The notes beneath the pieces are model-generated. The model had not been told where the DNA came from. It saw nothing but the letters and a program-made list of their open reading frames with translations, and did not search any database. 64,000 nucleotides of DNA from Mytilus edulis (Eukaryota), in assembly GCF_963676685.1 (NCBI RefSeq), contig NC_092352.1, forward strand, positions 46,996,001-47,060,000. Direction: 5' to 3'. Below are positions 528 through 39,291 of the stretch, in pieces (positions within the stretch are counted from its first letter, which is position 1; the number at the start of each line of letters is the position of its first letter). The translations under genes and the position numbers were made by a program.

Positions 528-716
528 GAGCTGGTGGATTTACGAACAACAAATGTACAATTAAAAGATAAAGTTTTTCAATTGGAAACAGAGAAGGAGT
601 TCTATATATCTAAACTATTCAATAATCCAGAAATTATGAATATTTTAACAGAGTATTATGGAGCGAATTTAAATAGTTTGTGTGAAGTTAAGGAAGAAGA
701 AATGTTTACATTTTAA
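528..716 (+). CDS. Terminal (leucine-zipper) exon of an ATF3/Fos-type bZIP paralog; upstream exons lie outside the window
   Basis: Acceptor tttag ends at 527, phase 0. ELVDLRTTNVQLKDKVFQLETEKEFYISKLFNNPEIM aligns with the last exon at 24063 (ELKSLIDENRHLKERICCIETEKEFFLSNILRHPVI). Confidence 0.8.
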   Translation, partial: ELVDLRTTNVQLKDKVFQLETEKEFYISKLFNNPEIMNILTEYYGANLNSLCEVKEEEMFTF

Positions 717-819
717 AAACATTAATCAGAATTGCCATTGATAAAATATCTCATATCTAGTCAATATTCCGGAAAACCGGAATACTTCATAAAACATATA
801 TAAGGCTTTTTTTATATAG

Positions 820-1203
820 ACTAGACCGTTGTTTTTCCCGTTTGAATGGTGTTACACTATTAATTTTGGGGCCCTATATAGTTTGTTGTTCGGTGTGAGC
901 CAAGGCTACGTGTTGAAGGCCGTACATTGACCTATAAGTGGTTTACTTTTATAAATTGTTATTTGGATGGAGAGTTGTCTCATTGGCACTCATACCACAT
1001 CTTCCTATATCTATTTATTAATCAATGGGAGATAACATACATGCTAGCTCTAGTAATTTTGGGGCCCTTTATAGCTTGTTGTTCGGTGTGAGCTAAGGCT
1101 CCGTGTTGAAGGCCGTACTTTAACCTATAATGGTTTACTTTTTAAATTGTTATTTGTATGGAGAGTTGTCTCATTGGCACTCACACCACATCTTCCTATA
1201 TCT
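820..1203 (+). repeat. Two adjacent copies of an interspersed repeat
   Basis: taattttggggccc..tatag..ttgttgttcggtgtgagc....ttgtctcattggcactca.accacatcttcctatatct occurs at about 860-1012 and 1054-1203. Related diverged copies lie at about 11180-11370 and 54900-55240, and reversed at about 8590-8680 and 33490-33760. Confidence 0.75.
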
Positions 1204-2032
1204 AGCTAGTGTGCAATAGAACTTACGTTTGATAATGACGAAGAAGATTAGTATCTTCGTACATAATAATTTTTGGAAATTATATACGTCTGTTCCATTG
1301 AAAATTAATAAAGTAAATATCAAAATATCAACACGTCGAAATATCACGACGATTCAACAATTAGAGGGAAAGGTTTCAAACATCTGACACTGTATCTTGA
1401 TCTCACCAAAAAATGGCGTTTCAGCATACAAATTAGAACAAGCACATTTTTACTCAAGATTCACAATGAAATGTTGAATTATGTTAGAATAAACTGAAAG
1501 GTTTTAAACAGGACACATGTCATTGTAAGAAATTAAATAATGACTTGCTGATTAAATATTTCATGACCAAACAACACAATGATACAATTTGTAGAACTAG
1601 AATTTGCTGATAACCTGATAAAGGTCATCGAGTAAAGGAGTCCTGTGTTTTTTTAGAGTCTTTTCCATATGTTAAGAAAGAATTTTGTTTCTGTAATGTG
1701 TTTTGTTTTCCCTTTTTAATGTCTTTCTCCTAAATTGGCTGGTTCTGTTCCATGATTGTGTGTGTAAATGTTTATTCTTATGAGTTTCTGTGCACTCTGC
1801 TGGTTTTTAATCTATAGACAAAAAAGGTTCTCAGCTATTCAGTTTTACTCGATCTTAAGTTCTGTGGATTTTTCTTGCTACAATGTTTTTTTACATTTCA
1901 TATTTTTCTTAAGCATAAGCCCTATAAGGATTAGTGGCGGCTGTTTATTTATGTGGTGCTGATTTAAGGGAATATAAAATGAAAGCTAATTGTTGAATTG
2001 TGATTTAAACTGAAGATTGATATACTAAATTT

Positions 2033-4030
2033 ATCTTATGTTCGGATTATGTGGTGAGACAAACATTCGTTAAGAGTTTCGTGGATTTTTTTTGCCTTGC
2101 CTATGATTGCTGATATCCGTGAGAAGGTGTAATGTTGATAGCACATATTAAGTTATTTCCAGTTATAAATAAAATTAAAGACATGTGTTCCGTTGCTAGT
2201 TTTGTTTATCATGAAGAAGTTTAATTTTTTCTATTTATGGTGGAATTTAATGAAGTTTGGAAATTTATTGATGTCTGAAAAACGGCAGCTCTAGGGGGTA
2301 TCTGAATGTAAACTAAAACATTATTTTCATTTCACAGTAAATACCTTTTAAAAAAATTGTTTTATGATAAATTCCTTATGAAGATCTGGTAAATGGGGTT
2401 AAACGATTATTGTTGTCTAAAAAACAGAACCAAAAGTAGAAAATTTCATTTATAGTTTACAAATAGTTAAATCATATATCATTCAAGGTGGCACGGTAGT
2501 ATTTCCTGGCCCATAAGGGATAATGATAGCCTTTTTAGAATTTTCACCACTTTCTAACACTGCAAAAAATTCTACATTCACAGTTAACTGAAGTACTTTT
2601 ATTTTACTATTCAGAAATGAATTTGAATATGTATCATGACCGTTTACCTAAGGCCACTAGTACTTTTAGGTCTTTTATGGTGCAGTGAATACAAAATTTT
2701 TTAAAATTCTCAAAAATTCATTTTCATCTGTATGTAAAATTATTTCATATTTTTCTACACCTGATTCATCCCTCAGTTTGGGAAAGTATGTTCAGTTGAC
2801 ACTGTATTGTTTGTCCAATCACACTGATTAGATACATTAACCTAAGTAGGGTACACAAAAGAGCAACCTAAATTCTGGAATGCAAATACTACCGTGCCAC
2901 CTCAAATAACCTAGGAAGATGAACTAACGCTAAAAAAATATGCTAAATAAAGAACATGGGAAATCCGTTTTCTAAAAATATAACTACAAATATTATAAGG
3001 AATTAATTTTAACTTCGTTTATGTGTGACCCTGGTAGATGTTTAAAAAAATTTAAGTGCTATTTATTGATGATTACTGAATAATCGTTGCATACCAATGT
3101 ACCTGTTTACTAATTATAAAATGACCACAATTATAGCAATTAACCTTCCAAGGGTTTGTCGGGTGATGTCTAATGTAATAATAAAGATTTTATAGGTAGG
3201 CGTGCATATGTCTTATATTTTTTACTTATTATTCGCTATGCTATACTTTAAACTACTGCTACAATCAAGAAATACCAAATCTTCATAAAACATGTTTTCA
3301 TAGAATATTCTATGATATATCATACACTTTTCTCAAAAACTCAATCAATACGAACTTTGAGAAACATTAAAAATCAAATGTACAAATCAATATAATTATG
3401 GTTACATGATTTGTGAATATTAAAAAATTTCATCGGTAGTTTTAAGTATTGAAAATTCTATAATTCAGTCCTTTCAAAACATCAAGAAATACGGTCTTCG
3501 TGGAAAATTGATATACCAAGTATAAGTAAATATAATTGATCCAGATACCTGATTTAAAAATCTTACAGTTTTTCAAAAGTAGATGTTGAATACCTAAAAG
3601 CGGTTTACACATTATTTTTCGATTTAGAATTAAAAAGAATTTAGAAATATACAATGTGTTAGGCTTATGTATTATAAAGGGAGAGGTTGTTTTAAAAATC
3701 TGGCACAGTCAGTGATAGTTTTTAACTTGCATGTATTTAAGACTGAAGAACTTGTACATATCCAATTTTACTAAAATATTGATAAAAAGGATAGCATGTT
3801 ATCACAACATAGTTTTCTAGGTTGTGTCCTATAATTTGTCTATTTTTCTTTTTCTTTTTTAGCCATGGCGTTGTCGGTGTGTGTTCGATCTATTAGTTAG
3901 ACTGTCCTTTGGTATCTCTCGCCCCTCCTTTATCCCAACGCCCATTTCTGTAAATATGAAAATGTCTGTTTCCGCCAAAATAGAATTCTAAATCAAAATA
4001 ATAGTCATAAATTGGATTGTAATTTATAAA
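2033..4030 (+). repeat. Non-coding segmental duplication, copy 1 (paralog of 4830-6853)
   Basis: Colinear matches run from gttcggattatgtggtgag (2040 vs 4836) through accttccaagggtttgtcgggtga and tcttcgtggaaaattgatata to tctgtttccg.caaaa. Confidence 0.85.
2487..2901. mobile_element. Non-autonomous TIR element (Kolobok-like MITE)
   Basis: TIR ggtggcacggtagtattt / aaatactaccgtgccacc with 4-bp TSD TCAA (2483-2486, 2902-2905). It is absent from the duplicate copy at about 5260 (empty site). Confidence 0.85.
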
Positions 4031-4829
4031 AACAATATATGTATGAGCTACCTGATTGCTAAACGCTTTTTAAAAAGCTGATAGTGTTTTAAAAATAAAA
4101 AAAACCCACATTTGATGAAAATCGATTCTAACTAACTAGAAAGAAATAATTAAAACAATAAACACAACATTGACTCGAAGAAAGTTATCATATGTGGCAA
4201 ATTTTATTCAAAAAGATTAGAGTTTTGAAAAGTACACAAACATTTTGTAAAAACTATTTTAGCTAAAATTAAATAAAAAATTAAAAAGAAGTTTGATTTA
4301 TCATATAACACATGAATGAAATTATGAAATAATGAGAATGCTGCGATCAGTTTAGGAAAGAACATATCTTTGCAATCATGGCAACACCATACTGAGAAGT
4401 TTTATATTAGATACTCTGTAAAGTTTATGCATAAATTTAGATGCGTTGTATATATACATTTACATGACTTATCTTTTTCCGACCGGTTGATCATTCTATT
4501 TATCCCCAACGTGGGGTTCTTTTGTTTTTTTATGCCCCTTATTCAGTAGAATTTTCTTGCTTTCATCTGAAATTTATATTGTGACTTTACGAGAAAAAAA
4601 GAGGCGACCATACCTAATGCCATAGAATGTACAGAACATATCATCTTTATAGATCATTAAAAAAGAAGGATATAGTTTATCTACGTGTTTTCATAAATTA
4701 TTTGAGAAAAAGATTCGAAAACCGAAACTCGTGCAATACGATATATATTCACTCTCGCCAGTGAAATGTTGATTACTAAAAAAGTGCATGCAACAAGCCT
4801 CAACTGAAGGTTTAAAAAACTTAAATATA

Positions 4830-6853: not shown

Positions 6854-7604
6854 TATTTTTTAAAAAATTCATTGACAAGCAATTACATTAGTCAGTCTGA
6901 TATCACTTATACGTATGTTTCCCTGAGACTTTTAAATATCAATGTATTGCTTTTCATGCAAAATTGCAAGATTTGCCAATACATATACATCTTGAAAGAG
7001 AGTAGTTAACAGTCATATATCAGCAAATACTTTACCCCAAAAGATGTATTTCTAAAAGATTTCATATACAATCCGATATAAACAGTGACACGTTTTAAAT
7101 TCCATGCGTCCGAGACACTTTCATTCAGTTTAAAATTATATGTTTATACTTTCATTAACTTAATTGTCTGTGCCAAGTTTTCATATAATATCAATGTTTT
7201 AATTCATCTGAATAAAGACTTTCAGTTGCGGTCAAATTAAAACAGCATACGATTTCCCGCAATTTTGTATCTGAGAGGCAAATGTTTTATATCTTATAAC
7301 CGAATAATATGATGATACATAAAACAAACATGTACCAATATATATGTGTCTCGTGTTACATGAAGCGTAGTCAATAGGGATATATTAACGTTTATATGCA
7401 AACTCTTAGTACAACACAATATACTTTTGAAATGAATACCATGTACAAGTAATCACAGTTACTATTAAAACATAATAATGATAATTATGATCATGATAGT
7501 AATTTCCTGGAACAGGAAAACATGTGAGGAGATGCAATTAGGATAAACAGGAAGTATAAATGTTCGTCGTTTTTCGGTTTCAACATCTATATGATCAAAG
7601 AAAA

Positions 7605-9382
7605 ATGGCACAATCTCCAATTGGAACTTGTGAAATTTGTGTTCAAGCACCAGGATCACAGTACTGTAAACAATGTCGACAGTACTTTTGTAACAACTGC
7701 AAGATTGCTCATCTGAGATCGAAGATGGCACGTAATCATGTATTTGGGAAAAGAAACGAGACAGGCCAAGAGGAAGAGTTTATATGTAGGCATGTAAATC
7801 GACAACTGTTTATGTGTTTAGATTGCGATTTTCCGTTATGTACGACTTGTCTAGTTGAAAACCACAATGGTCATAACGTGGAAGATTTAGATAAAATATT
7901 TTCATCTTTGCACGACCAAGCATCTAAGGCGATGAAAGGGATTGAAAATGATTTTAAGCGTAAAAGCGGTGGTATGAAAACAATGACAACATCGTATGAG
8001 AAGGAGAGCGAAAAGCTTGAGCGATCGATTTTACTACAAGGAGAAATAATAAAGTCTAGTGTTGACAAAATGGTTAGCACAATCATTGATGACGTTAGGA
8101 AATCTCGCGGGAACGTGAAAAAACATTATCCTACATGTGTCGATGATGCAGTTTCAACTACATGTAAGAAATGGCAACAGCAGTTGGATGAAATTAGACC
8201 CAAAAAAGCAACAGGGAAGACTGTTTTTGAAATTCAGAAACTTCTTGATGAGATAAAAACAATGGAACTTCCAAACCTGCCTGATGCACCTACTGTTAGA
8301 TATAGTGCTAAACCTGTCGACGTAAAAATAATCAAGGATTTACTAGGAGGTGTCAAATTTTTGTAAGTAATTTAACAGATCTTATACTATTTTTTGTTTG
8401 TTTCACATCTCAAAAACGACAAGAGCTTGACATTATATTCATATTTTAAAACTACTTATAACATTCAGAATTGTATACTGCTGTTTCTGTTTACCACGTA
8501 AAAATTGAATAAAGGGCCTCATAAAGTCAGTCAAAATCCGGAAATAAGGGAGGGGAAAATCTCCCAGTCCAATTTGTTCGGAACGGTCTTTAACAATGAG
8601 CCTTGGCTCAAAGCGAACAGCAAGCTATAAAGTGCCCTAAAGAGACATGTAAAACCATTCAAACGAGAAAACTAAATCAATTTAAAATACGAGGCACGAA
8701 AAACACATATGAATCACATCAATAAGCTATTGAATATCAGATTCCTGACTTAGGATAAGTACAAACAAATGCAGCGGGTTTAAACGTTTAAATAGGTAAT
8801 ATGTATATAAACTCATCATAGATGTATGTTTATATATATTTATATATATTTCATCCACAAGAAGAAAATTGTGGCAGCTTTGAAATTCCCGAAAACTAAC
8901 TACGGGTCGCCACAACCGAAACCATTGGATAACTCCAAAGGAGTAATAGCTCTTATATGACTTTTTTTTTTACTATTTGTTGTGCTTAAGTCTATTATCT
9001 TAACGACACTTTTTAAAGTAAAAAGGAAGAAAGAACTGAAAACCATAAAAATGTATAGCCATATAAGTAAATGAAATAATTTGTGTTTTTCAGATCCTTT
9101 TCAAAACTAAACCCAAAATCAAAAGAATTGTTTTTGGTACCTGAAGGGTCTGGGTATGGTTTACGTTTCGTCGGTGGAAAGGATGTCAATGAAGAAGTAT
9201 ACGTGTCATTTGTTTCTTCTGAGGGCCCTGCTGCTAAGGCAGGTCTAAAGCAATTTGATCAAATAATCGCAGTGGATGGAAAACAAACTAAAGGCCTGAC
9301 ACATGACGAAGTCACAAGCATATTTAAGAATGCCAAAGGCAAAGAAAATGTGTCAATAACAATTACGCCTTTTCAGCAGTAG
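7605..9382 (+). CDS. RING-less TRIM-like protein: B-box1, B-box2, coiled coil, C-terminal PDZ (about 348 aa; exons 7605-8362, 9094-9382)
   Basis: B-box1 CEIC..CKQC..CNNCKIAH..H and B-box2 CRH..CLDC..CTTC..HNGH precede a helical region. Donor GTAAGT at 8363 (phase 2) joins acceptor ttttcag ending 9093 in frame (TT+A=Leu). The second exon is a PDZ (GYGLRFVGG..GPAAKAGLKQFDQIIAVDG..LTHDEV). Start taken from homology with the paralog (MAQ). Confidence 0.85.
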
Positions 9383-12300
9383 ATGTGTGTGTAGTGTTAA
9401 TATAGTTGCTGTACTATTTTATTCAAAGCTGAATATAAATTTTCAGCAATGTTTGAATTTATAAATTATTTGTAAAATTCTGAAATAAATTTTCGAAAGC
9501 AAAAATAATAGAACTTTACTTTTATTTTTTCAACTTATTCATTGTTTCATATTCGTAACCGCTTACTTTTGAAATTTAGATATAGAATAAAATAATACAT
9601 TCTTACAAATAAATGCAACTGTAAAGTAGCGAAGCTATATTAGTAACATAGTGTGAAGGCTGCTTCTTCACTTTACCAACTGTATTAGAAAAGAAGTCCA
9701 GAAATGAGAACAAAAATTCTACACCGAAGAACATGAACACATCATTCGATTTAACGACAAGCCTCAGTGTAAACTCTTGTTCCAACACACATGTAGTCGT
9801 ATGGCTTACAACTGTGCAATATAAGGACAAAGCTGATAGAGTACTCGATAGATACAATAAAGGTTCACGAAGGGTAAAAAATGGGCATACTTTGGAGAAT
9901 ATTTGGTACTTTTTAGAAAAGAATTGATATATTTAGCATTTAGACTTTTGAAATAGACCCATTTAAGAACCAAATTGAGACTTTTTTGGTGTTTTATGAT
10001 AAAGTTGATATTTTAGGCCATTTTGTGCCATAAGTGAACCTTGTCCTTTGCTTCATAGATTTCATTGATTTTGTTTGTGATAAGAATAGCAATGTATCAT
10101 ACATTGTTGTATGTGCATCATTAGCACTAAGATTCACTTATCATTCTAATGGTGATTTTGTAAGACACGTTAAGAATCCAATGACATTTTTTGTTATTTG
10201 TTGCCGATTGAGTGTATCCATTGAATGCAATTAAACTACTTGATTAGTTTGATGTCTTGTTACGTTTTTATTCACACAAAAAAGAACTACACAACAAATA
10301 ATTTTATAACAATTTATAAATTAATTCTTTATTTCCTTGTAAAACAAAAACAGAATGGTTGAATTTTTATTAATACTACGATATTAGCACTTGAAAGGTT
10401 AGATACTTTTCTTGTCTTTATGTTCGCTTATTGAATACCTCTTTGTGTTTAAAAAAAAATAATAAGTAAATGGAATTTAAAAGTGATACTTTAGGGAAAA
10501 TGACGATTTGAATAATTGAGGAAAACTGAGCAGACAGAATATCAAATTGAAATATTAGCCAGAAAAAAATACTGATTTACTATAAAGCAGACTAATAAAA
10601 ACGAATAGAAAAGTTGCACAACTAATATACAATATACTTAGTCAAAATAACATGCAAAACCAACAACAGTGAAATTTTTAGCCTATTTTATATTCACTAT
10701 GTAAAAAATATAAGTTCAAAAACTTGAAACGGACGTTGATTCTTATCTTATTTCCTAAGTATTCAACATTGCAATACCAGGAATTAAAACGTAAGGAAAA
10801 TAAAACTTATACAAACAGTCACATCAAGGCTAATTAACACACATTATACACAATGGAAAAAAAACCAATGAAGCTTGAACCCTATTCATATTGACAATAT
10901 CTTTACGTCCTAAGAAATATAAGTCAATACAATTTAAAGAGAAGTGTTTATCAAAATCTTTTCCAGGAGTAATTAAGATAAGTATATCAGTATCGAAATT
11001 CATGGACTTAATGACAACATCAGACTTATTAAAGTTGTAAAAGAACTGTGCACAATCAACGTGCTACATAATAAGTCAAAGCATCATGCAAGAAACACCA
11101 TAAGTAACTTCAGCTTTTCGTTTTACGATGTCATATTTGTTTTCCATCGTTCTGTTCAATCACAATCAGGCCGGAAGTTTTCTCGTTTTAATTGTTTTAC
11201 ATTTGTAATATCGGGGCCTTTTATAGCTGACTCTGTGGTAATGGTTTTCTTCGTTGTTGAATGCATTACGGTTACCCATGATGTTTAATTTTTATGTCAT
11301 TTCGTGTCTGGTGAAGAGTTGTCGCAATACAAATAATACCATAACTTCTCATTTTTATAATTTCTATCTACATTGTCTTTTTTTCAAAACACTTGTTTAT
11401 GTTACCAATAACAACAAACCTCATATTAACATACCATCTGGGAAGGCTTCTTAATACCATGTTAATGTAAATAAAATGTGTTGATTTAAATTAACAAACT
11501 CATAACGCAGTCATCCATAAAAAGGCCCCGAAATTGATTTGTATAAAAATCGGTCATGTTTTGTTCCAATCTTCATCTAAAAATCTCTAACTCATTGTTT
11601 TTTTTTAGGTTGCCGATTAAAATCTGTTTCTATGCTACATGAAGAACAAATAATTTCTATCACATTTTCGTTACCTTTGAGGGCCTTTTAGTTGAAGAAA
11701 ATTTAGGTTTTTGGTTAGTTGGTTAATTGTATGGATATTTCCTATTTAAGAATTGAAACAGAAATATATTTCCTCACTTTTTACAAAAATAGTTCAAATT
11801 TGACGAAGAAGTATTTGAAGGTTTAATGTATGTTGTGATGACTCGTTATCATTTTGGAACAATGTGTCCATTATTTGTTTACTCTTGTTTAGTTCAAAAT
11901 TCAAACAATGTAAAACCACATTAGTTAGTTCAATTCCGAGCAATTTCTATAAGAATAATTCTGAGGAAATTAAAAAAAAATGTCACTTATAACAATGAGA
12001 CCCTCCTATAATTGAGTCCTTTGTAATTGGAAATTATGAGAAATTATTGGCGTATATAAATACAAGATTTTGAATTTAAAGAAAGCATTTCTGATGCTTC
12101 ATATATTTTATAATGTTTTATCATCATGAATCCAGTAAATATTTGTCATCATAATTTCTGGATTGTGTATAACCGAAATAATGTACATTCTTGCATCAAA
12201 ATTGACAATACTGGTATCCTAATTTAGTTAAAACAATATACAGTATCAATGGTCTATATAAAGTGTTCTTCGTTTCAATTTTTCTAACGAATCGAACCGT

Positions 12301-13372
12301 TTTCATTGGCTATAAACTTTATTATGTCGTCTGCTTCTCGTAACGTTAGATCAGTATCATTCTTTACACGAACCTAAAGCATCCAGGAAATTACAGCTTT
12401 TTTTGTTTTAAACGGAAACGAGTAAATGTATTATGTCCTCCTTTATCTTTATATTTATAAACTAATTGTTCTTTATTCTTAAACACAAGTAGTTTGATGT
12501 ATGAAACAACTATTTGAGTTACAACGCTAAAAACCAAAGTAAAACTAGAAGTTTGTTTGTTTTTATTTATTTATTGATGCGAAAAACATCTTTTTCAGTA
12601 TAAAAATATGTTAGCAATGTATACGGTGTAACTTATAAACAGCTTTTCATGAGATCCTTGAGTGTTCAAATATCAATGACTTTTCTGAGGCTAATTCCAA
12701 AAAACAATTCAGACTCACCTAAGTTTATTATTTTTTGAAGTATGCAGTTATAATTTGCAAATAGGTTCATGCATTTCAACTAATAAAAAAACCTTTTATA
12801 AGGGCAACGGTAGTGTACCGTTGTTTAAAAGTAAAAATTGACTAAGATTGTCAGTTTTCCTATCGAAGGTCGGTTGTTTTTTCAGGACACATCGACGTCC
12901 TCCTTCAATAACAATATAGTCGCCACGAAATAACCTTAAAGTGGCACTAAAAACTGGCGTTAAAATACAAACAGTCAATCGATCAAAACACATAAGTCGA
13001 ATGAGAGGAAACATATCCAGGTCACAAAATAAAAAAACTACAAGAGGAAAACAACGAAACAACAGAAACACTGAGGTGCAACATATATGACTGCGTCATT
13101 TGGAATTATTGCGATCACTTGGTGTACGTGTTCGATGTCCGTCGTCGTACGCTTTTTCAAAAAGCTCTTTTTTAACTACTGGAGATCATCATGTAGTGTC
13201 AACCTTATCACACTCAACAAAGTATACAAAGTGAATTTTATTTTCTCACTACGATTATTATATTCATAATAGTATTTACCAGGAAAAAGAAAGTTTGGGA
13301 TGAGATAAAATACACTTATATGAACAGGAAGTTAAAACATTCGACCTGCAACTTCCACATGATAAAAGGAAA

Positions 13373-15409
13373 ATGGCACAATGTCCAGTTGACACCTGTG
13401 AAATTTGTGTTCAAGCACCGGGCTCACAGTACTGTAAACAGTGTCGACAGTATTTCTGCTACAGCTGCAAGACTGCGCATCTAAGATTAAAGATTGCACG
13501 TAACCATGTATTTGGAAAAAGTTTCGAGATTGATCCAGAAGAAGAGTTAAACTTGTTGAAATGTAGTCATGTTGATAAACATGTGTTTATGTGTTTAGAT
13601 TGCGATTTTGCGTTGTGTAAGGGCTGTCTAGTCGAAAACCACAATGGCCATAACGTAGACGATGTGAATAAGATGTTTTCATCTTTCCATCACCAAGCAT
13701 CAACAACAATGAAGGGAATCTTAAGTGATTTCCGGCGTAAAAGCGATAGCATGAAATCATTGACAACATCTTATGAGAAAGAGAGTGAAGCGCTTGAGCG
13801 AGCAATTTTGAATCAAGGTGCAAAAATAAAGTCTAGTGTTGACAAAATGGTGAGCGGAACTATTGTTAACGTTATGAAATCTCGTGAAAACGTGAGAAAA
13901 CATTATCCTAAATGTTTTCAGGATGCAGTTTCAAGTAAATTTAAAACTTGGCTTCAGCAGTTAGCTGAAATTGAACAGAAAGAAGCAACCGAAAAATCTA
14001 TTCACGAAATTCAAAAACTGCACAACGACATGAAAGCAATGGAACTTCCAAACATGCCTGATGTCCCTACGGTTAAATATTGTGCCCAACCAGTCGACGA
14101 AAAAATAATCATGGGTTTACTAGGACGTATCAAATATTTGTAAGTAAAAAGTTATGATATCATAAGAAATAAACATCTCATATATAACTTGTGTTAGAGT
14201 GAACTAAATATGTATATAATCAGTCAGAGTAATGTAAGTCGGGGAAGTATCAAGCTATCAAGTGCATGTTTCCATCCTCTTACAATTCATGATTTTACAT
14301 TTTATCTTCAACTATCTAATATCTATATATATGACAAAATTGTTGGTTTACATTTTGTTGGTAAAATATGACAACAGCGATGCGTGTTTTTCTTATTTGT
14401 CAGGTTTTAATAAAACGATATAAGCCATTTGTTCTGTATGTTCGTTACGTTTTAGCTCATCATGTTCTAAAGCCAATATAAGAAGATGTCATCACTTACA
14501 CATAAAAAAAAATCGACACTACCAAATGATGACTGTTATGTATTTTGTGTATAGGAAAATATGCTAAGTAGATAGAGAAAAACTATAAAAAAAATATGTG
14601 TGGTCTTAGAGTTCAACAGTGTGAAGTATATAAAAGTTATTCTTTGTGATATATAAAAAAAAAAGGCGTTCTTTTATTCAAATATTTAAAAGAATGTTCA
14701 TCAACATTGATATCAAATAAACAAAACTGCATTTCCTTTTTAATATAAGCATATATCTACTATTTTTGGTATATGATTAAAAAAAGGTATTTTTAACATA
14801 TTCTGTTTACGAATATTCATATATAAAAAGAGAATGTTCTTTTTCATAGACCAAACATATCTATTATAAATGTTAATAGATTTTATGAAATTTACGAAAT
14901 TACGAAATTACAACAACCGTCAATGAATTTAAGTAAATACATTATTTTTGTGTTTCAGATCCTATTCCAATCCTATCCCAAAATATAAGGAGTTGATATT
15001 GTTACCCTGTGCGTCTGGGTATGGTTTCAAGTTCATCGGTGGGAAGGATGATGAAGATATTTACGTGTCCGAAGTTTTGCCCAATGGTTCCGCTGCTAAG
15101 GCAGGTCTTAAACAATTGGATAAAATAATCGCAGTGGATGGAAAACAAGTTAATGGCTTGTCTATCCAGGAAGCTGCAGAAATGTTTAAGGATGCGAAAG
15201 GCAACAACGGTGTGTCAATAATAATTGAGCCTTTTCACGTAGCAGATAATTCTTCCAATGGTTCTGCTGCTGTGACAGGTCTCCAAAATTTAGATAAAAC
15301 AATCGTTGAGAATGGAAAACAAGTTGAAAGCTCATCCCGTCATGAAGTTCAAGAAAGTTTTGAGAATGTTGAGGATGTGTCAATAAGAACTGAGCCTTTT
15401 GAGCAGTAG
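13373..15409 (+). CDS. Paralogous B-box/B-box/coiled-coil/PDZ protein with an extra partial PDZ (about 405 aa; exons 13373-14139, 14959-15409)
   Basis: Same architecture and the same phase-2 intron (GTAAGT at 14140; tttcag ending 14958). PDZ: GYGFKFIGG..GSAAKAGLKQLDKIIAVDG. Confidence 0.85.
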
Positions 15410-16949: not shown

Positions 16950-18192
16950 CAGTGGCGGATCCAGGGGGTGGTCCCACGGCGCACCGGACCACCCCCATGA
17001 CGAACCTCAAATTTTTTTAAAGTGTCTATTTTTTCAATAACTAGCTAATTAACAAATTAATACTTAAGATTAATCCTTTCGTCGCACTAATTGGTTATGG
17101 ATTACCTGGATACCTAGAGATGTCACAATGATAGAATACGGATCAATGCGTTTCACCTGTATACATCTAATTAAATTGTCAAAACAGCTCGTCAATATGA
17201 AGAAGTTGACTTCTTATTTTGAAAGGTACAGAAAAATACAAATTATTTTTTTTTATTTTTAAGTGAAATTTCTATATATAATTGCATTGTCCAACTAACG
17301 GAGTCTCGGTTTTAAATTTCATTTATGTACATTTTGAAAAAAAAAAAACATTATGAATGAATTAAATTTGTTTATCTATCTCTGTGAGCCCCACCCCTTT
17401 CCCCCAAAATCAACAGCAATTCAAGCACTGAAGTTGGTACCGGCATTTGTACAAAGCGCAACATTTGATGAAATTAAACATTTTGTAGACTTTAACCATA
17501 CTGATTTGCCGAGTCCATCTGCAATGCCGTCCGAACTGCGTTTGTGGCAAAAGACTTGCGAGTCAATGCTTTCAAAACCAGAAACTGTAGCCGGTGCTCT
17601 AAAAGTATGTTCCAAAACAGACTTTCCAAATATTTCTGTTATCTTAAAAATCATAGCTACCATGGGGGTGACGAGTTGCGAATGTGAGCGATCCAATAGT
17701 GAGTTATCACTTTTAAAAACCTACATGAGAACAACTATGGGACAATCGCGTTTAAACGGACTTGCGTTGATGCATGTGCACTACAGTTTGGAACTAAACA
17801 TAAAACAAATTATAGATAACTTTGCAAGGAAACACCCGCGACGCATGATGTTGAATGACCTGATAAACGACTCTTTGTTAAATTAGTAAATTTTGAACAA
17901 TTTTACGTAGAACTATTTTTACCGATTCGGAACATTTTAGCTAAACTTTTTTTACAGCTTGCCTAATTCAGATGACAGTTGCATGTATGTTGTGCTATTT
18001 TAGATTGCAATATATTGTCTATATATATAAGCGTCTTAAATAAAAATCAGTTTTACATGTCTTTAAATTCCTTTACCTAGGAATATGTGCATTGTATGGT
18101 GTTATCCAAATTCATGATCTTCCATAATGTCGAACATACCATTCAATATTTATTTGGGACCATCCCCAATTATTTTTCTGGATCCGCCACTG
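16950..18192 (+). mobile_element. Internally deleted hAT-superfamily DNA transposon with 15-bp TIRs and 5-bp TSD
   Basis: TIR CAGTGGCGGATCCAG (16950) / CTGGATCCGCCACTG (ends 18192); GCAGT on both flanks. Internal ORF encodes a hAT C-terminal dimerisation domain. Confidence 0.9.
17353..17886 (+). pseudogene. C-terminal fragment of a hAT transposase (PRKRIR/THAP12-like dimerisation domain)
   Basis: FPNISVILKIIATMGVTSCECERSNSELSLLKTYMRTTMGQSRLNGLALMHVH..IIDNFARKHPRRM; the N-terminal part of the transposase is missing. Confidence 0.85.
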
Positions 18193-22337: not shown

Positions 22338-24254
22338 ATGAAAATGGAAAGTGAAACAACGTCATTTCGTTTACCTTCTGATGCTTTTACCTTTGGCACA
22401 GATCTTTATAGTTTATCTTTGGAAGCTGTGGAGAAAGAATCCCTGCTACCTTTATTAAAGGATGAACTACGCTGTAAAATACAGAACAAACGACTTTCTC
22501 AAGGAATGGAAGAACTGAAAATAGATTTTAAAATGAAGCCGCCAGCACCTGTAAGTCGAAAAGATATATCAAAAACTTCGTTGTTATCTTGATATCCCTA
22601 CATGGTTTCGTATACATGTAAGGATAGGTGTTTAGAAACTAGTACAATTTTTATAAACAGTTTGAACTCGAAACATCTACATTTATATAAATAACTAAGC
22701 AACAAATATCTAGAATATATCAAAAAATGTAGAATAATAAGACAATTTCTTTTAAATTGATTTGAACTGCTTATCCCATACCTTTCGTAAGATTTCAAAC
22801 ATTTTTACAATAATTGCGTCATTTCCTTTTTATGTTCATATTTCTATTCAAAGTGTCTTTTATACATACGAAAAATCATATATTTTATTAAACAAATGAA
22901 AACAACAAATTTTTTTTTCAAATTTGTTTGGAAATAATATATGTTAACAATTGTAATGCATTTGATATTACAGCTGACAGCTGAAGAAATACAAAAACAA
23001 GAGAACAGAAAACTTCTTAACAGGGAATCAGCCAAGAAATGTCGAAGGAAGAAAAAGACAGTTTATCAAAACGTACAGCAGGTAATGTGCCTATCCATAT
23101 AAAAGTGTTCTGATAGACTTACAAGTAAAACAAAGACATATTTTATTGCCTTAAGGATGTCCGCTACTCTGTTCAAAAATAACAAGCTTATTAAAAGACT
23201 GTTATAAATTGATAGTATATAAATAAAGAAACTAAAAAAGCAGAAAAAAATGGAGGGTCTGTGAGCTTGTTTTCAAAATATAAATCATTGAAAATTTGGC
23301 GGGAAATAATTCTCTCTAGATTTTCTTTGACTTAACATTGGCAACTTTTTTGTTTAAAAAATTATGAAAAAATAACAAGGATTTCATAAGATTTGGGAAT
23401 ATGCCTTTTTAAACAATATGTTATAAAAATAAGAAAAGAAAAGTAGGCTAGTGGGCAATTTTTTAAAATGTTAATATACAGATGAAACCAGAGGATTCCG
23501 AAAATCTGACAAAAATTCAAAAAATAAAGGAGCAAACATCCTTAACTATTACTGAAATTAATAAACATAACGCTCAATAACAATAGCATAACAGCAAACA
23601 CAAAGGAAGGGTGTAACAAGGTTAAGCTTTTGAAATTACATTATGGCAATGACTTGTCTTAGGGTTGTTTTGAATGGCGTGCAAAAGAGTGCCGGAACTA
23701 ACACAAGATATTGTATCGTAATTGAATTACTTGAAACACAGATCAATAAACAAGTCAGTGAATTTCTAATCGCCGTGATAACGCATTTTTTGTGTCAGAT
23801 TATTTTTAGATAAATATGAACGATACTACTCAACGTTATATTGGATGAGTTCAAAATTCTAAAAGAAATTGAAACCATGTCGGGATGGGTACCTAAAAAT
23901 ATTCCATAACAATTACATCGGGTATATAGTGTACTGAAGCTTGCTTATGTTATGATTTTTTTAATGAGTACAATAATCAAATAACACAGATAGACGACAA
24001 AAGATTTGTTGATAAAAAAAGTTACAGGAACATTAAAATCATATCTATTTTTATTTTTTCAGGAATTGAAATCATTGATAGATGAAAATAGACATTTAAA
24101 AGAACGAATTTGTTGCATTGAAACAGAAAAGGAGTTTTTCTTGTCAAACATTCTAAGACATCCAGTGATATCTGAAGTGTTATCAGACTTTTCTAAATCA
24201 TTTGACAACAATTTGACTGAAATCAAAAATGAGATTATTTATGTACAGAACTGA
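22338..24254 (+). CDS. ATF3/JDP2/Fos-type bZIP transcription factor A (about 170 aa; exons 22338-22550, 22974-23081, 24063-24254)
   Basis: ATF3-like N-terminal motif LLPLLKDELRCKIQNKRL (human ATF3 as recalled: LTPFVKEELRFAIQNKHL). 108-bp phase-0 basic exon LTAEEIQKQENRKLLNRESAKKCRRKKKTVYQNVQQ. Zipper exon with canonical GT/AG. Confidence 0.9.
23155..23541. mobile_element. Kolobok-like MITE in bZIP A intron
   Basis: TTAA on both sides (23151-23154, 23542-23545); imperfect TIR ggatgtccgct / agcaaacatcc. Confidence 0.7.
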
Positions 24255-26119: not shown

Positions 26120-26390
26120 GAGGGGCGAACGATACAAGTGGGACATTCAATTTCATAAATCGAAAATAAACTGACAACGCAATGGTTAAAACAAATAAAA
26201 CAGACAAAGAATTGTACACAAACGAAAACATACAAAAATAAACACCCCGCAACACGAACCCCGACAAAAAATTAGGTGATCTCTGGTGCTCCGGAAGGGA
26301 AAGCAGATCCTGCTCCACATGTGACACCCGTCGTGTTACTCATGTTGATATAAACCATGTCATAAGTCTTATTCGGTAGGTCACACTAAA
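26120..26390 (-). repeat. Interspersed SINE/PLE-associated repeat (opposite-orientation copy at about 43340-43570)
   Basis: ggtgatctctggtgctccggaagggaaagcagatcctgctccacatg matches the reverse of ggatctgcttacccttctagagcacttgagatcacc at about 43374. Shared part also seen at 41900-41985 and 3845-3930. Confidence 0.65.
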
Positions 26391-27177: not shown

Positions 27178-28359
27178 ATGGATTCATCATCATTAAATTC
27201 TACATCTGATGACGAAAGTGTAAATCAAGATAATTGTAAATCAACAAGGAAACCCATGCTTCCTTTTATAAAAGCTGAACTCAGATGTAAAATTCAAAGA
27301 AAACATTTATCTCAAGGTCTTCAGCAACTTCGGGCAGATTTTACAGAAAAACGGCCAAGCATAGTAAGTATGGAAATATGTTAAAAAACAAAAAAAAAAA
27401 TGTTTATACATTTTTAAAAAAATATTGACAATCAGATTCAAATAAATCGCTTAGAATAACTGCATTTTGTTATCAAACAAAATAAATGTCCTCCGTGGAA
27501 AATGAAATTAAACGTTTTCTCAATATCAGGTCTAGTCAACCTTATTTTATTTTTTAAATGGGAAATACAAATGTCTACATTTTGATTCAAGCTATTTGCC
27601 TTAACACAAGTTGAACTACTTATAAAAAAAGTATCCTATCTTTAATGGTCTCTTTATTTTACAGCTAACAAAAGAAGAGCATGAAAAACAAATTGTAAGA
27701 AAAGAAAGAAACAAACTAGCAGCAAGAAAATGTCGACAAAGAAAGAGACAGATAACAAGTCTTCTACAAGAGGTAAAACAAATATATAATTGGGAATATG
27801 AAAAATTGAAATGTTCAAGAGCAACAGAAACATAAGTGAATTTGATGCACGGTTACACGGAAAAGGTCTCCATATGTTGGAAACATAAAAGGTAGAACAT
27901 TACAGTTACGCTCAAATGAGAAATTAGAAAAACATATTTATATAACAATTTCTGCTTTTTACTAAAACATCCGTTTCAGGCGTAGACATTTTTCAGAACT
28001 TTAAAATAACAAGAACTGACAAGTTTAGCTTCGTTTCGCAGTGCAAAGGCAGTCAACCGTCTCGTAGAGGTGATTACGCCTAGCTGATTCAGTTGAAATA
28101 TTAAATATTTTCTCAAAAGATTTTATTCACTCGAAAATTGAAAAAAAATAGATGAGTATTTTTTCCTCAAATCAATCATCAATTTTTTTTTATTTTGTTA
28201 CAGGAGATACGGGAATTGACAGACGAAAATAAACAACTAAAGGAAAGAATAAGATGTCTTGAACTAAACAGGGAACAATTTGTATGGAGTGTGTTAAACA
28301 ATCAAGTGACAATGAAAATGTTTGGAGAGATATATCGAGCAATGATGAAAGTTTCGTAA
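27178..28359 (+). CDS. ATF3/JDP2/Fos-type bZIP transcription factor B (about 149 aa; exons 27178-27363, 27665-27772, 28204-28359)
   Basis: MLPFIKAELRCKIQRKHL motif. 108-bp exon LTKEEHEKQIVRKERNKLAARKCRQRKRQITSLLQE with canonical NxxAAxxCR. Zipper EIRELTDENKQLKERIRCLELNREQF. Confidence 0.9.
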
Positions 28360-31199: not shown

Positions 31200-31467
31200 C
31201 AATCTAAAGTTAGATAACATAAGAAGTAAAGAATTAAGAATAAAAATACGCGATGGAATCGCAAGACAAAAAGGAGTTTGGAATGAACCACCAAAACTTT
31301 CATGATAATTTTTTCGTAGGAACAATGAGACGACAGTAGTTTACCGATGTTTAAATAACGTTAAGATGAAACTGGAACAGAATTTTGACAAAGAAATGAT
31401 TGACGAGCATTTCTTGAGACAGTCGATGCTTTGATCCAAAACAATGGAGAATGCATTGAAAAAGTAA
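31200..31467 (+). pseudogene. Possible decayed intronless bZIP copy (most like paralog C)
   Basis: One frame reads KELRIKIR..EPPKLS**FFRRNNETTVVYR..KLEQNFDKEMIDEHFLRQ, echoing QELRLKIQ..EPKSYE|LT..NRDSLRRSR..MLKQ|TFDTESSKEESLKR. Contains in-frame stops. Confidence 0.35.
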
Positions 31468-31489
31468 TAGTTCTTTCATTTCCATTCCA

Positions 31490-32790
31490 TTGTTTCAACT
31501 ATGTACTGGCTTCCGAAGCTACACAAAACACCTTACAAATATAGATTTAATTCGTCTTCAAGCCATTGTTCCACTACTAAATTGTCTATTCTTCTTACCA
31601 GCACACTTGGTACAATTAAAAACCTGATAATAAATTGTTCAAATAAGGCTTTCGAAAATAGTGGAATTAATTACTTTTGGAGTGTACTTGATAAATTGCA
31701 TGCTTATATTGGTGATTTTAAATCTGTTCAAAGTTTTGATTTTTCTACCCTGTATTCCACATTGCCTCACATTCTCATTAAGAAAAAATTCACACACCTA
31801 ATTGAATGGGCATTTAAAAAGTCAGAATGTGAATATATATGTTCAAACTCTTTTAGGTCATTTTTTAGTAGCAATAAACAAAAAAACTATGTCAATTGGA
31901 CATGCTTTGATACTATATATGCCCTTGAATTTTTACTAGATAACATTTTTGTTCGCTTTGGGGATTCCGTATATCGTCCGATTATCGGAATTCCAATGGG
32001 GACTTACTGTGCACCACTTATTGCGGACCTGTTTTTGTATTGCTATGAGTTACAATTTATGACAAAAATAAGCAAAGACCCATCGAAACAACATCTTATA
32101 AACAAATTTAATAATACTTTTAGATATTTGAATGATATTTTGGCTCTCAATAATGACGACACTTCAGTATGTATATTAAAGAAATTTATCCTGTTGAACT
32201 TACTTTAAATAAAGCTAATACTAACAATGACCACTGCCCTTTCCTCGATCTTGATATCTATATCACTAACGGAAAGCTGAATACTAAAATTTATGATAAA
32301 AGAGATGATTTTTCATTTCCTGTCGTTAATTATCCATTTTTAGATGGTGACGTTCCCTTGTCACCATCTTACGGTGTTTATATATCTCAACTTGTACGAT
32401 TCGCTCGTGTATGTAACAATGTTTTAGATTTTAACGAGAGAAATTTATGTATTACTGAAAAATTATTACACCAGGGTTTTCGATATCACAAACTAGTCAA
32501 AACATTTACTAAATTTTATCATCGGTATAAGGACATCATTCGTAAATATAGCTCAACATGCAGACTTCTTATACGTTCAGGTATTTTACATCCAATTTTT
32601 TATGGAAATATTCTTTATGAAGCACAAAGGTGTCAGTATTCACCTCAAAAACTAACAAAACCTATGAATAGACTTATTAAGAAGGGATATAGTTACGAGA
32701 CTGTTGTCAGGTCATTAAAGATTGCATATTTTGGCGTTAATATTGATTCCCTTATAGGGTCTTTGCATCGGAACTAAACACATTTATTAA
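31490..32790 (+). mobile_element. 5'-truncated, inactive Penelope-like retroelement reverse transcriptase
   Basis: YWLPKLHK, SFDFSTLY, GIPMG..APLIADLFL, FRYLND (catalytic YxDD mutated), frameshift near 32160-32170, then YDKRDDF..YGVYISQLVRFAR. No endonuclease seen. Confidence 0.85.
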
Positions 32791-35700: not shown

Positions 35701-36218
35701 AATAAAACCAAATGAAAATTAAGGCAATAGTTTAATCAATGATAAGTGTGAAATGGCAGTCCATCAGCACTACTCGAAATTTTAGAATTTCTTACTTGAT
35801 ATATTAGTATATATTACTTTGTCATCTTACTTCCACTGCTAGCATGTTGCAAGTTTAATATGTTATCACTTTTAAATCATTTTCATGTTACAGGAGCAAT
35901 TGATTATTTGACGACTTTTTAAAATTTATAATTTCTGATATTCGATTTCAACTAACACAAAAAACAAAAATCATAGTGCAAAGTTCGAAGTGCGAACTAT
36001 GTATTAGATTCAGAACAAATTCATAAACGCTGTATTATTTTATTTGTTCTTCTTCTTTTAGTGTTCGACATTTTTATTACTTGGTCGTCATTTGCAGAAC
36101 GATTAATATTTTACCAACTCTTGGAAATTATGTATTGAGATTAAGTATTTTCGGATGAGAAACTGCTTAATATCAATTCGGTGGTACCAAGATATTCTGA
36201 TGAATAGTCTTCATTGTT

Positions 36219-39200
36219 ATGATCGAGCCCTCTGACAAAGGACAAAAATACCAGGTAATTACAGAAGAACACCCATCAACCAGTACTAAACAGTTGAAAA
36301 ATAAGAACACAGAAAAAAGTTCAAAAGTTCCACAGAAACGTAAACATAAGAACTCAGATAAAATATCTAAGAGTTCCGACTCTGACGAAGACATAAGTAA
36401 AGCCTATGAAAAGAGTGTAAAAGAGGATAGTTTACTTCCAATTTTAAAGCAGGAGTTGAGACTCAAGATACAAACTAGACGATTAAGTGAAGGTCAAGGA
36501 GAGTTATTACCAGAAACAAAGGAACCAAAATCTTACGAAGTAAGTATTTTGTAAATTACTAATCAACCAAATATCCTAATATCTAGATGAGCGGATATTT
36601 ATTTTTTTATAAACGAGTAAAGATATGACAAACTAGAGGGAAATCACGTCTCAAAAGGTTGAGAGATTAAGAACCGAAGTCTAGGAAAGACAAAAAGCAC
36701 CACGAACATAAGAAAAAAAGACAAAAAAACAGTCTACAATACTCTAACGATTGAACAACCCGTTTTCCACCCAAGTTCTATGGTGAATTAGTATTCTCCG
36801 AAAATATTAGAAGTTCTTGCAATTGTTCATTCTAAAGACTGGAGTGATATTACTTAATATTCCGAATATGTTATGAATTACGGAAGGAATTTAACATCAG
36901 AAGAAAAAAGGAACCAACCATTGTATTGTCGCTGAGCTGCAAGTTTTTTTTGGGGGTGGGGGTGGGGGTATATTTTTTTTTCTAAATGTGTATTTTTTAC
37001 GTAAGGACTCTATTCTTAGGATCTTGGTCATTCTCATTTGAAACATAGTTTGTTCTAATAACTGAAAGTTTTATAATTGAAACGGACGCATTTTCAACAC
37101 AAAGAAATCGTATAACTGGTACAATTTTGTTTTAGCTTACTGAAGAGGAAAAAGAGAAATATAAGCGACGACTAATACAAAACAGAGATTCATTGCGTCG
37201 ATCGAGACAGAAAGACATACGACGCGAGGAAATGTTAAAACAGGTAATTATCATTTGTTATCGACCTTACAGCACTGAGCAGTATTACAATACATGTATG
37301 TTTAAAAAGTGAGTCTTCTCGTTCCCTAATTTGACATATAAATCTGATTTTTTTGGTAAAAAAAAAATGCAGCAAATACTTGACTGTACAATAGATACGA
37401 ATTTAAAGTTTTTAATACAAAATTTTACAAAGTGAAATGCAATGATAATTTCTTTACGACAGGAGAAAATTATTAGTTTTGCAGGCATAATCAATTAAGT
37501 TTGTTATATGATACGGACACGCTTGGTCTTTAGTAAGTGTAAGTGAAAATTATGAACACCAATAGCAGCTGATATTATCTCGATTTACCGTTGGCCTCTT
37601 GTTCTTTTAATATTTTTGTTGTTATCAAGGAAGAAAAGCATGACCTTGTTGGAGGACCATCATTCATCTCCGCATTTTATCGCTCAATACTCAGTTTTCA
37701 GGATTATTATTTGGGAAGTTGTCAATTTCTGTTCGTCTTCTTTATCTCTTGTTAACAATATTGGTTTTTTTTTTATTCCACTTATAGTTTTCGATTGTCA
37801 CATTAAATGCTTCTTTTTTTCTGTTCCGATAATATACGTCTTTAATATTGATGTAGAACATTTTATCAATCTTCAGTTTGTATTATATTTAAAACATTCC
37901 TAGCAGTGACATAAGTGTAACTCTCTATAATGATACATACAAATAAGTACATTACATATTTTGTAGCAATGAATTGTATACTATGAAATGACAATAACAC
38001 TTTAAAGCAAATAACATTGTATAAAAATTACGCAAAGGAATGTTGATTTTACATCTTATAGCATTTTACTTTGTAAATAGATGTCATGAATAAATGCAAC
38101 ATGGTACCTTAACGCCAACATATGATATATATGTATGTATAATAAGTTGTATAAATTAAATCAAAACTGTTTATGATATTTCTTGGATATGAGATAATAC
38201 TTTATATTTCTTAGATATGGGATAATAGCGATTAAGATTATAACACAATGCTGACTGCTGTACCCCAATTTTTAACATTTCTACCTATTATGTCTATTTG
38301 GGTTTTTTCACACATCGTTGTCAATATCATTGATTTTAATGCGACTGTCATACAAGTGAAGGTTTAGTAGCTAAAGACCCAAGTTTAATCCAGCAATTTC
38401 TTCATATGAAAATACCGGTACCAAGTCAGGAATATGACAGTTGTTATCCATTTGATTGATGTGTTTGAGATTTTGATTTTGCCATTTGATTAGAGACTTT
38501 CCAATTTGAATTTTCCCAGAAGTTTCGTATTTTTGTGATTTTATTTTTAATATACATAAAAGTATTACAGACAAGCAGCTTCGATCTCACACAAAACATA
38601 TTGATGATTACTTATACATCTTTGGATTTCAAATGTTTGGCTTTGAGCGTTCCTGATGAAGGTAAATCCAGAAAGTGCGTCGGACGCAAGAAATTATTAA
38701 ACGTGTTGTTTTCAATTTTTTACATCACTGGGTCGATACCTCTGCTGCTGGATATCAGTCCCCGAGGGTGTCATCAGCTCAGTAGTCAGTACTTCGGTAC
38801 TGACATGATTTAACAAACTTTACTAAAATTGTCCGTTTATAAATTTTGAAATTATTAAGAAACTAAGGTTTCAACTCCCTCAGGCAAAGTTGGCTTTACA
38901 TTAATTTGGCTATTTATTTTTGGTATTTTTGACATATAGCTCTTTAACAGTTTCGGTACGTATACATCTTTAGATTTCAAATGTTTGGCTTTGAGCGTTC
39001 CTGATGTAGGAAAATCCAGAAAAGCGCTTCGGACGCAAGAAATTATTAAGCGTGCTGTTTTCAATATCTGTCGACATATTCATGATTAAAATATATTGCA
39101 TGCTGTTTATTTCACAGACTTTTGATACGGAGAGCTCAAAAGAAGAAAGTTTAAAAAGACAAAAGATGCAACTTTTAACAGAAAGAGAAGAATTGAGGAG

Positions 39201-39291
39201 CAGACTAAGGGAAGCAGGAATGGATATTAATGAAAATACCTCTTCTTTTATCTGCAAAGGATGCAAACAGACGATAAAATATCCCTCATGA
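36219..39291 (+). CDS. Divergent ATF3/Fos-type bZIP factor C (about 200 aa; exons 36219-36539, 37136-37243, 39118-39291)
   Basis: LLPILKQELRLKIQTRRL motif. 108-bp phase-0 exon LTEEEKEKYKRRLIQNRDSLRRSRQKDIRREEMLKQ. Zipper exon ends ICKGCKQTIKYPS. Start codon uncertain. Confidence 0.85.
38647..38687 (+). ncRNA. Minimal type I hammerhead ribozyme motif (copy 1)
   Basis: Stem I gcgttc/ggacgc; intact CUGAUGA and GAAA boxes; GUC cleavage triplet; stem III degenerate. Confidence 0.65.
38995..39036 (+). ncRNA. Minimal type I hammerhead ribozyme motif (copy 2)
   Basis: Stem I gcgttc/ggacgc; palindromic stem III AAGCGCTT; UUC triplet; core CUGAUGU (A9 mutated). Confidence 0.6.

What the first reader, a model, noticed from the sequence alone, without database searches (positions are those of the whole stretch)
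528..39291. Tandem array of at least four divergent ATF3/Fos-type bZIP genes, interleaved with the B-box-PDZ pair
Seen: all are on the same strand. The three complete genes share an exactly 108-bp phase-0 basic-region exon and the ELR-KIQ motif, yet their basic regions and zippers differ strongly. The partial gene at 528 resembles A and B, so the B-box-PDZ pair sits inside the array. Known: the 108-bp exon is the Fos/ATF3 structure, and these genes are low-copy in most invertebrates. Inference: a lineage-specific expansion of AP-1 partners next to the NF-kB regulator TNIP, possibly a stress/immune locus.
Basis: partly seen in the sequence, partly recalled or inferred. Interest (0 to 1): 0.7.

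Follow-up and report, generated by a model that had tools for sequence, protein, structure and literature searches.

The report
Six-gene mussel ATF3-like regulator array
A mussel chromosome carries six tandem, strongly diverged copies of a transcription-factor gene of the ATF3 family, separate from the ordinary ATF3 and Fos genes, which likely give mussels extra stress-response regulators with altered pairing and DNA-binding preferences.

Summary
The array is real and larger than reported: six same-strand, three-exon bZIP genes (F, E, D upstream; A, B, C in the window) over about 66 kb of a Mytilus chromosome, with two B-box-PDZ genes between D and A and a TNIP1-like gene beyond C. A, B and C are spliced exactly as predicted. 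All carry the 108-bp basic exon and an N-terminal motif shared with ATF3 of scorpion, amphioxus, crinoid and hemichordate, so they are ATF3-type, not Fos. Canonical ATF3 and Fos lie together on another chromosome. The genome holds at least 16 ATF3-motif genes, part of a mollusc-wide divergent clade. A, B, D, E form a clade with no named non-mytilid member; C and F group with clam or unionid genes, though a single origin was not rejected (AU p=0.08). Copies are old (25-58% identical) and conserved across Mytilus species. Zipper charges predict that A, B, D pair with themselves or each other rather than Jun. Co-induction and an 'immune locus' are untested. Nothing in print was found on this expansion.

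The parts
528..716 (+). Gene D, exon 3 (leucine zipper and C-terminus). Exons 1 and 2 lie upstream of the window at G000:C9:46992287-46992499 and 46995350-46995457; genes E (46983583-46985881) and F (46969025-46973336) lie further upstream
   Evidence: orthologues P0001 and P0002 at 87%
7605..9382 (+). B-box/coiled-coil-PDZ gene 1 (exons 7605-8362, 9094-9382), inside the array
   Evidence: Pfam zf-B_box and PDZ; open spliced frame
13373..15409 (+). B-box/coiled-coil-PDZ gene 2 (exons 13373-14139, 14959-15409); 68% identical to gene 1 in the B-box exon
22338..22550 (+). Gene A coding exon 1 with the ATF3-type motif (ELRCKIQ)
   Evidence: splice joint 22550-22974 in runs X1 and X2
22974..23081 (+). 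Gene A 108-bp basic-region exon (NRESAKKCR)
   Evidence: Pfam bZIP_1 E=4.9e-05; joints
24063..24254 (+). Gene A zipper exon
27178..27363 (+). Gene B coding exon 1 with the ATF3-type motif
   Evidence: joint 27363-27665 in runs X2 and X7
27665..27772 (+). Gene B 108-bp basic-region exon (NKLAARKCR, the most canonical of the array)
   Evidence: Pfam bZIP_1 E=1.1e-05
28204..28359 (+). Gene B zipper exon
   Evidence: M. trossulus orthologue P0103 at 83%
36219..36539 (+). Gene C coding exon 1 with the ATF3-type motif (ELRLKIQ)
   Evidence: joint 36539-37136 in X1 and X2
37136..37243 (+). Gene C 108-bp basic-region exon (NRDSLRRSR; Leu where 206 of 213 relatives have Ala)
39118..39291 (+). Gene C degenerate zipper exon ending in a CxxC motif that the orthologue P0207 also has
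48038..61650 (-). TNIP1-like gene (UBAN/CC2-LZ and RanBP zinc finger), flanking neighbour; its first exons lie beyond the window's end

Best explanation
This is an old tandem array of six intact ATF3-type bZIP genes that are separate from the genome's canonical ATF3 and Fos and likely act as short, dimeric transcriptional repressors or modulators with changed partner and DNA-site preferences. Shown: gene structure, splicing of A, B and C, family placement, conservation across Mytilus species, and low dN/dS between paralogues. Inferred history: ATF3 duplicated early in molluscs; the canonical copy stayed beside Fos; the other copy radiated; F and C are older branches of that radiation and A, B, D, E are later local duplicates in mytilids; two B-box-PDZ genes came to lie between D and A. 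Inferred mechanism: the proteins are 149-200 aa, lack Fos's long C-terminal tail and keep the ATF3 pre-basic motif, so like vertebrate ATF3 they would dampen or redirect TRE/CRE-type targets. F and E keep a Jun-compatible zipper; A, B and D are predicted to homodimerise or pair with one another; C has the most altered basic region and zipper and may bind a different site or act as a dominant-negative partner.
For: Six genes and no further remnants in 204 kb. Exact predicted splice joints for A and C in two runs and for B in two runs; D and E have full-length spliced relatives P0001/P0002 and P0005/P0006. The profile's best solved-structure matches are FosB and c-Fos, and the N-terminal motif is present in proteins named ATF3-like from Centruroides, Branchiostoma, Anneissia and Saccoglossus but was not found in the part of this genome's Fos that was read. 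Canonical ATF3 (K) and Fos are 34 kb apart on C3. Divergent clade excluding K: 95/87 and 99/93; A+B+D+E clade: 100/99 and 99/96. Orthologues in M. trossulus, M. galloprovincialis and M. californianus at 83-96%. Paralogue dN/dS 0.15-0.33 at dS 1.3-2.1 (near saturation, rough) and no DNA-level duplication between the bZIP genes. g-e' pair counts: A, B, D 4 attractive/0 repulsive with themselves and each other, Asn at the third a position; K and Fos 0/4 and 0/6 with themselves but 5/0 and 4/0 with Jun. AlphaFold model of the A orthologue: continuous helix 74-139, mean pLDDT 87.5. Vertebrate ATF3 residues 40-84 repress, and ATF3 is TLR- and stress-induced (PMC3278981).
Against: No binding, repression or induction data exist for any of these genes. 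The AU test does not reject one origin for all six (p=0.08), and the sister group of A+B+D+E changes between trees. The self-pairing pattern is weaker in some orthologues (P0008 2/0, P0009 0/2, P0010 2/2, P0001 4/2), and charge counting is crude. Three raw-read RNA runs showed next to no reads on these exons (X21, X23; X21, X22; about 6% of each run read), so expression is low or restricted there. The C orthologue P0207 has no Pfam bZIP match at E<=0.1.
Confidence: 0.6

Rival explanations
1. One reading: all array genes are one mussel-lineage expansion of Jun-binding AP-1 partners that form a co-regulated stress/immune locus with TNIP and the B-box-PDZ genes.
For: A single clade for all six is not rejected (AU p=0.08). 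The neighbours are immune-flavoured: TNIP1-like, B-box genes, OLD-like ATPase-TOPRIM genes upstream. An AP-1 heptamer lies within 2 kb upstream of the start codon in 4 of 6 genes against about 0.2 per random 2 kb. An ATF3-annotated mussel transcript is listed as up-regulated in a heat-stress table (PMC10079687, passage seen; paralogue unknown).
Against: C groups with a Ruditapes protein (97/94, 94/92) and F with Mercenaria/Potamilus proteins (95/91, 82/82). Similar genes sit in at least five other places without TNIP among the open frames I read. The B-box exon has 114 matches in this genome. The motif scan tested six motifs on related genes without mapped start sites; NF-kB sites were seen in 1 of 6.
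Confidence: 0.2
2. The copies are functionally redundant dosage or tissue variants of ATF3: same Jun-dependent mechanism and sites, differing mainly in where they are expressed.
For: The invariant Asn and Arg are kept in all six; B has a canonical basic region; expression appears run-restricted.
Against: Basic exons are only 33-61% identical to one another; the substitutions at DNA-contact positions are conserved in orthologues (C: NRDSLRR in P0207; F: NRESAEKAR in three Mytilus species); zipper a/d/e/g patterns differ from K.
Confidence: 0.17
3. The array is decaying duplicate debris (pseudogenes or dispensable genes) in a repeat-rich region.
For: LINE and hAT remnants lie between the genes; C's zipper is degenerate.
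Against: All six frames are open, three were shown spliced, orthologues are conserved across Mytilus species, dN/dS is well below 1.
Confidence: 0.03

Closest known systems
ATF3/JDP2 subfamily of FOS-type bZIPs (bilaterian FOS-ATF3 pair; PMC4736632)
   Same: Short protein, pre-basic ELR-x-KIQ-type motif shared with named ATF3-like proteins of four non-mollusc animals, 108-bp basic exon, Asn-x7-Arg basic region, zipper.
   Different: These are not the ATF3 orthologue (gene K on C3 is). Ser replaces the first Ala of N-x-x-A-A in five of six genes, A/B/D/E have Phe or Tyr at the fourth zipper d position and mostly lose the His-x-x-x-Cys end, and there are 16 or more copies against one in the arthropods and sea urchin listed in that paper's Table S1.
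Fos (c-Fos/FosB/kayak)
   Same: Best solved-structure matches of the bZIP profile; same exon structure.
   Different: No long C-terminal tail; this genome's Fos is on C3, has an acidic self-repelling zipper, and the read part of it lacks the ATF3 motif.
Vertebrate BATF/BATF3 (short Fos-branch bZIPs)
   Same: Short, tandem-derived Fos-branch paralogues with Ser in place of the basic-region Cys (as in C); databases name several mollusc copies 'BATF3-like'.
   Different: The mollusc genes keep the ATF3 N-terminal motif. No vertebrate BATF was in my trees, so orthology was not tested; that BATFs are vertebrate duplicates is recalled.
Unclassified Lottia bZIP 164399 of Jindrich and Degnan 2016 (PMC4736632, Table S1)
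   Same: Its sequence lies within P0134, which carries the ATF3 motif and falls in the same divergent clade.
   Different: That paper left it without a family and assigned no Lottia ATF3; it did not describe a radiation or an array.

Membership tests
bZIP superfamily | Basic region with invariant Asn and Arg eight residues apart | tested here: met
   All six array genes; Pfam bZIP_1 for the A and B exons below the curated cut-off, full-length orthologues P0008 and P0103 above it
bZIP superfamily | Heptad leucine zipper in register after the basic region | tested here: met
   d positions F LLLLFH, E KLLIYS, D VLLLYN, A VLLIFH, B LLLLFN; continuous helix in the model
bZIP superfamily | Zipper and Pfam match for gene C | tested here: inconclusive
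   d positions LELLLA, charged a positions; exon E=0.069; orthologue P0207 has no Pfam hit; it does match the family profile at E=3.6e-28, but C's own exons are rows of that profile
FOS-ATF3 branch | Closest bZIP relatives are Fos/ATF3 and the basic region sits on a 108-bp phase-0 exon | tested here: met
   this genome's Fos and ATF3 have the same exon
ATF3 subfamily | Pre-basic N-terminal motif (P-x-x-K-E-E-L-x-x-x-I-Q type) | tested here: met
ATF3 subfamily | One-to-one orthology with bilaterian ATF3 | tested here: not met
   Gene K lies outside the divergent clade, among canonical-type sequences; the array genes lie inside it (95/87, 99/93). They are ATF3 paralogues
ATF3 subfamily | Stress-inducible; represses through TRE/CRE sites | not testable with these tools
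   No condition labels or binding data
AP-1 (Jun-binding) partners | Zipper complementary to Jun | tested here: inconclusive
   g-e' counts with this genome's Jun: F 5/0, E 3/0, A 2/1, C 2/1, B 1/1, D 2/3, against K 5/0 and Fos 4/0; prediction only
Fos proper | Long C-terminal tail and self-repelling acidic zipper | tested here: not met
   Array proteins end 51-63 residues after the basic exon against 141 for Fos
BATF | Clade with vertebrate BATF/BATF3 | not tested
   No vertebrate BATF sequence was fetched

The most novel reading that the evidence does not exclude
Molluscs have an unrecognised radiation of ATF3-derived bZIPs (16 or more genes in Mytilus) that rewired the AP-1 system: branches changed DNA-contact residues (Ser for Ala, Leu for Ala, Phe/Thr/Ala for the Cys) and the mytilid A/B/D group became a Jun-independent private dimer network encoded in one tandem array, possibly a remnant of a cluster as old as bivalves.
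Probability: 0.3. Interest if true: 0.62.

Novelty: new variant of a known kind. Interest (0 to 1): 0.42.

Why it matters
The animal bZIP complement is described as small and stable (PMC4736632), so an old, conserved, many-copy ATF3 radiation with altered DNA-contact and zipper residues is a clear exception and a natural experiment in how new dimer codes and binding sites evolve. In practice, mussel and oyster stress transcriptomes that report 'ATF3', 'BATF3', 'JunB-like' or 'kayak-like' genes may be reporting different paralogues: database names for this one family include all of these.

Tried and rejected
Literature: eight searches aimed at this expansion or at bivalve ATF3 found no paper that describes it; the library lacks most subscription journals, and supplements of bioRxiv preprints are closed. 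Earlier findings of this scan: four look-ups, nothing. Synteny beyond Mytilus through the TNIP neighbour: the search returned 7 proteins, 4 named Mytilus and 3 unnamed, so no test. Presence/absence variation: DNA-like runs hold 0.30-0.86 of the words; this mixes species divergence with absence and was not used. No listed holder was on record as RNA; the splice joints are the evidence. A complex prediction of C with Jun was not run and would have been weak evidence for a coiled coil. The 110-row careful tree did not finish (the quick tree was read). Promoter motif scan: weak, not relied on. 22 of 235 sequences were left out of the trees for lacking the full core; the careful trees used 47 and 42 chosen rows. 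Rejected: that these are Fos genes, pseudogenes, or a recent segmental duplication.
Full report
Setting. The window is G000:C9:46996001-47060000 of a 1.37-Gb genome. C9 has the same length as the contig given for NCBI proteins named Mytilus edulis, including one whose exons match the window's TNIP-like gene, so this is a blue mussel.

Observation. Genes A, B and C have the stated three-exon, phase-0 structure with an exactly 108-bp middle exon and ELR-x-KIQ in exon 1. The pattern occurs 3 times among 33 open AG-108-GT segments in the window and 0 times in each of 50 shuffles. The piece at 528-716 is the last exon of gene D. Upstream DNA gave the rest of D and two more genes, E and F. A scan of 204 kb with 12 family proteins found these six genes and no further remnants. 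The order is F, E, D, B-box-PDZ, B-box-PDZ, A, B, C, then a convergent TNIP1-like gene whose last coding exon is about 8.7 kb from C.

Expression. Contigs of runs X1 and X2 join both introns of A and of C at the predicted GT-AG sites; contigs of X2 and X7 do so for B. These runs are only guessed to be RNA, but the joints show spliced molecules. Raw RNA runs X21, X22 and X23 (about 6% read) had next to no reads on the exons laid.

Family. A profile of the family matches FosB and c-Fos best among solved structures. The same profile retrieves proteins named ATF3-like from Centruroides, Branchiostoma, Anneissia and Saccoglossus that carry the exon-1 motif. The genome's own Fos and a canonical ATF3 (gene K) lie 34 kb apart on C3 and both have the 108-bp exon; the motif was found in K and not in the part of Fos read. 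Besides the six array genes and K there are G1, G2 (C9, 76.7 Mb), H1-H4 (C3, 8.6-8.7 Mb), J (C14), L (C3, 25.0 Mb) and M (C13): 16 motif-bearing genes, a lower bound. In Table S1 of PMC4736632 (passages, section 5 and supplement rows seen) Drosophila, Tribolium, Daphnia and the sea urchin have one ATF3 row each, Lottia has none assigned, and the unassigned Lottia bZIP 164399 is contained in P0134, a member of this radiation.

History. Trees used a 130-column core (213 of 235 sequences had it). Two careful IQ-TREE runs of 47 and 42 chosen rows put all Mytilus genes except K in a divergent clade (95/87 and 99/93) whose named members are all molluscs: bivalves including Solemya, and gastropods including Patella and Haliotis; many rows are unnamed. 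A, B, D and E form a starred clade (100/99, 99/96) whose named members are all Mytilus; single Pinctada and scallop proteins with a similar basic region are its neighbours in two of four trees (not 52, 54). C groups with a Ruditapes protein (97/94, 94/92) and F with Mercenaria and Potamilus proteins (95/91, 82/82). Forcing all six genes into one clade costs 25.6 log-likelihood units but is not rejected (p-AU 0.08), so several old lineages are favoured, not proven. One Solemya model (P0088) holds two complete motif-plus-bZIP units, which suggests tandem copies in a protobranch too; its units are unresolved in the tree. The array is old: proteins are 25-58% identical, dS among A, B, D, E is 1.3-2.1 with dN/dS 0.15-0.33, no DNA-level duplication links the bZIP genes, and orthologues at 83-96% exist in other Mytilus species, with B, D, E and TNIP on one M. 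trossulus contig.

What has changed. Among 213 cores the first Ala of N-x-x-A-A is Ser in 45 (five of the six array genes), the second Ala is Leu in only 2 (C and its orthologue), and the Cys position is Phe in 101, Cys in 74, Ser in 17. That these positions contact DNA is stated for five conserved basic residues in PMC4736632 and otherwise recalled. In the zipper, A, B, D, E have Asn at the third a position and an aromatic residue at the fourth d. Counting g-e' charge pairs, A, B and D score 4 attractive/0 repulsive with themselves and each other and 2/1, 1/1, 2/3 with this genome's Jun, whereas K and Fos score 0/4 and 0/6 with themselves and 5/0 and 4/0 with Jun; F and E favour Jun (5/0, 3/0). 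Some orthologues show the pattern more weakly. An AlphaFold model of the A orthologue has two short N-terminal helices and a continuous bZIP helix.

Mechanism. By analogy with vertebrate ATF3, which has a repression region just before the bZIP, forms homo- and Jun heterodimers and is induced by stress and TLR signals (PMC3278981, passages and section 7 seen), the array proteins are most likely short repressors or modulators, with partner and site preferences that differ among copies. This step is inference. A mussel heat-stress study lists one up-regulated ATF3-annotated transcript, paralogue unknown (PMC10079687, passages seen).

Neighbours. The B-box exon has 114 matches in the genome and the B-box-PDZ form has a third copy at C9:61.09 Mb, so the interleaved pair is most simply an insertion plus local duplication. 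Two intronless OLD-like ATPase genes lie upstream of F; such genes are already reported in bivalves (10.64898/2026.08.18.745644, passages seen). An immune neighbourhood is plausible but untested.

Verdict. Real, expressed, and a local piece of a mollusc ATF3 radiation that eight literature searches did not find described. It is a new variant of a known family, not a new kind of system. Interest 0.42.

Noticed in passing
G000:C3:8645884-8735224 (L036-L045): A second tandem array of four ATF3-type genes (H1-H4) with Phe in place of the basic-region Cys (N-x-x-A-A-x-x-F-R). This form is common in bivalves and gastropods (Phe in 101 of 213 cores) and has expanded separately in Pinctada and Mytilus; Phe at this position in fungal Yap1/Pap1 is recalled, not tested.
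   Followed up: partly
G000:C9:46957387-46959141 (L020:1387-3141) and 46925442-46927631: Two intronless OLD-like genes 10 and 41 kb upstream of gene F; the first has ABC ATPase and TOPRIM matches, only the ATPase start of the second was scanned. OLD-like genes in bivalves are already described in a 2026 preprint.
   Followed up: partly
G000:C3:23235622-23277694: Canonical Fos and ATF3 lie in tandem on the same strand, 34 kb apart; the Fos part is duplicated on unplaced contig C1339.
   Followed up: partly
P0088 (Solemya velum KAL5017852.1): One predicted protein holds two full ATF3-motif-plus-bZIP units; probably two tandem genes fused by annotation.
   Followed up: partly
window 39118-39291: Gene C ends in CxxC after the zipper, conserved in P0207; a dimer would bring four cysteines together (possible metal or redox site, untested).
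   Followed up: no
G000:C3:24976819-24976631 (L060): Gene L has a PLDLS sequence just before a degenerate ATF3 motif; PLDLS as a CtBP co-repressor motif is recalled.
   Followed up: no
window 7605-15409 and G000:C9:61087030-61090163: B-box/coiled-coil proteins fused to a PDZ domain, three copies on C9, within a B-box family of more than 100 matches clustered on C8, C11 and C12.
   Followed up: partly
P0003 and P0015: Annotated isoforms of D- and G-type genes skip the in-frame 108-bp basic exon, which would give zipper-only proteins unable to bind DNA.
   Followed up: no
window 17338-17883 and 31471-32774: A hAT transposase remnant and a frameshifted LINE-like reverse-transcriptase remnant lie between the array genes.
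   Followed up: no
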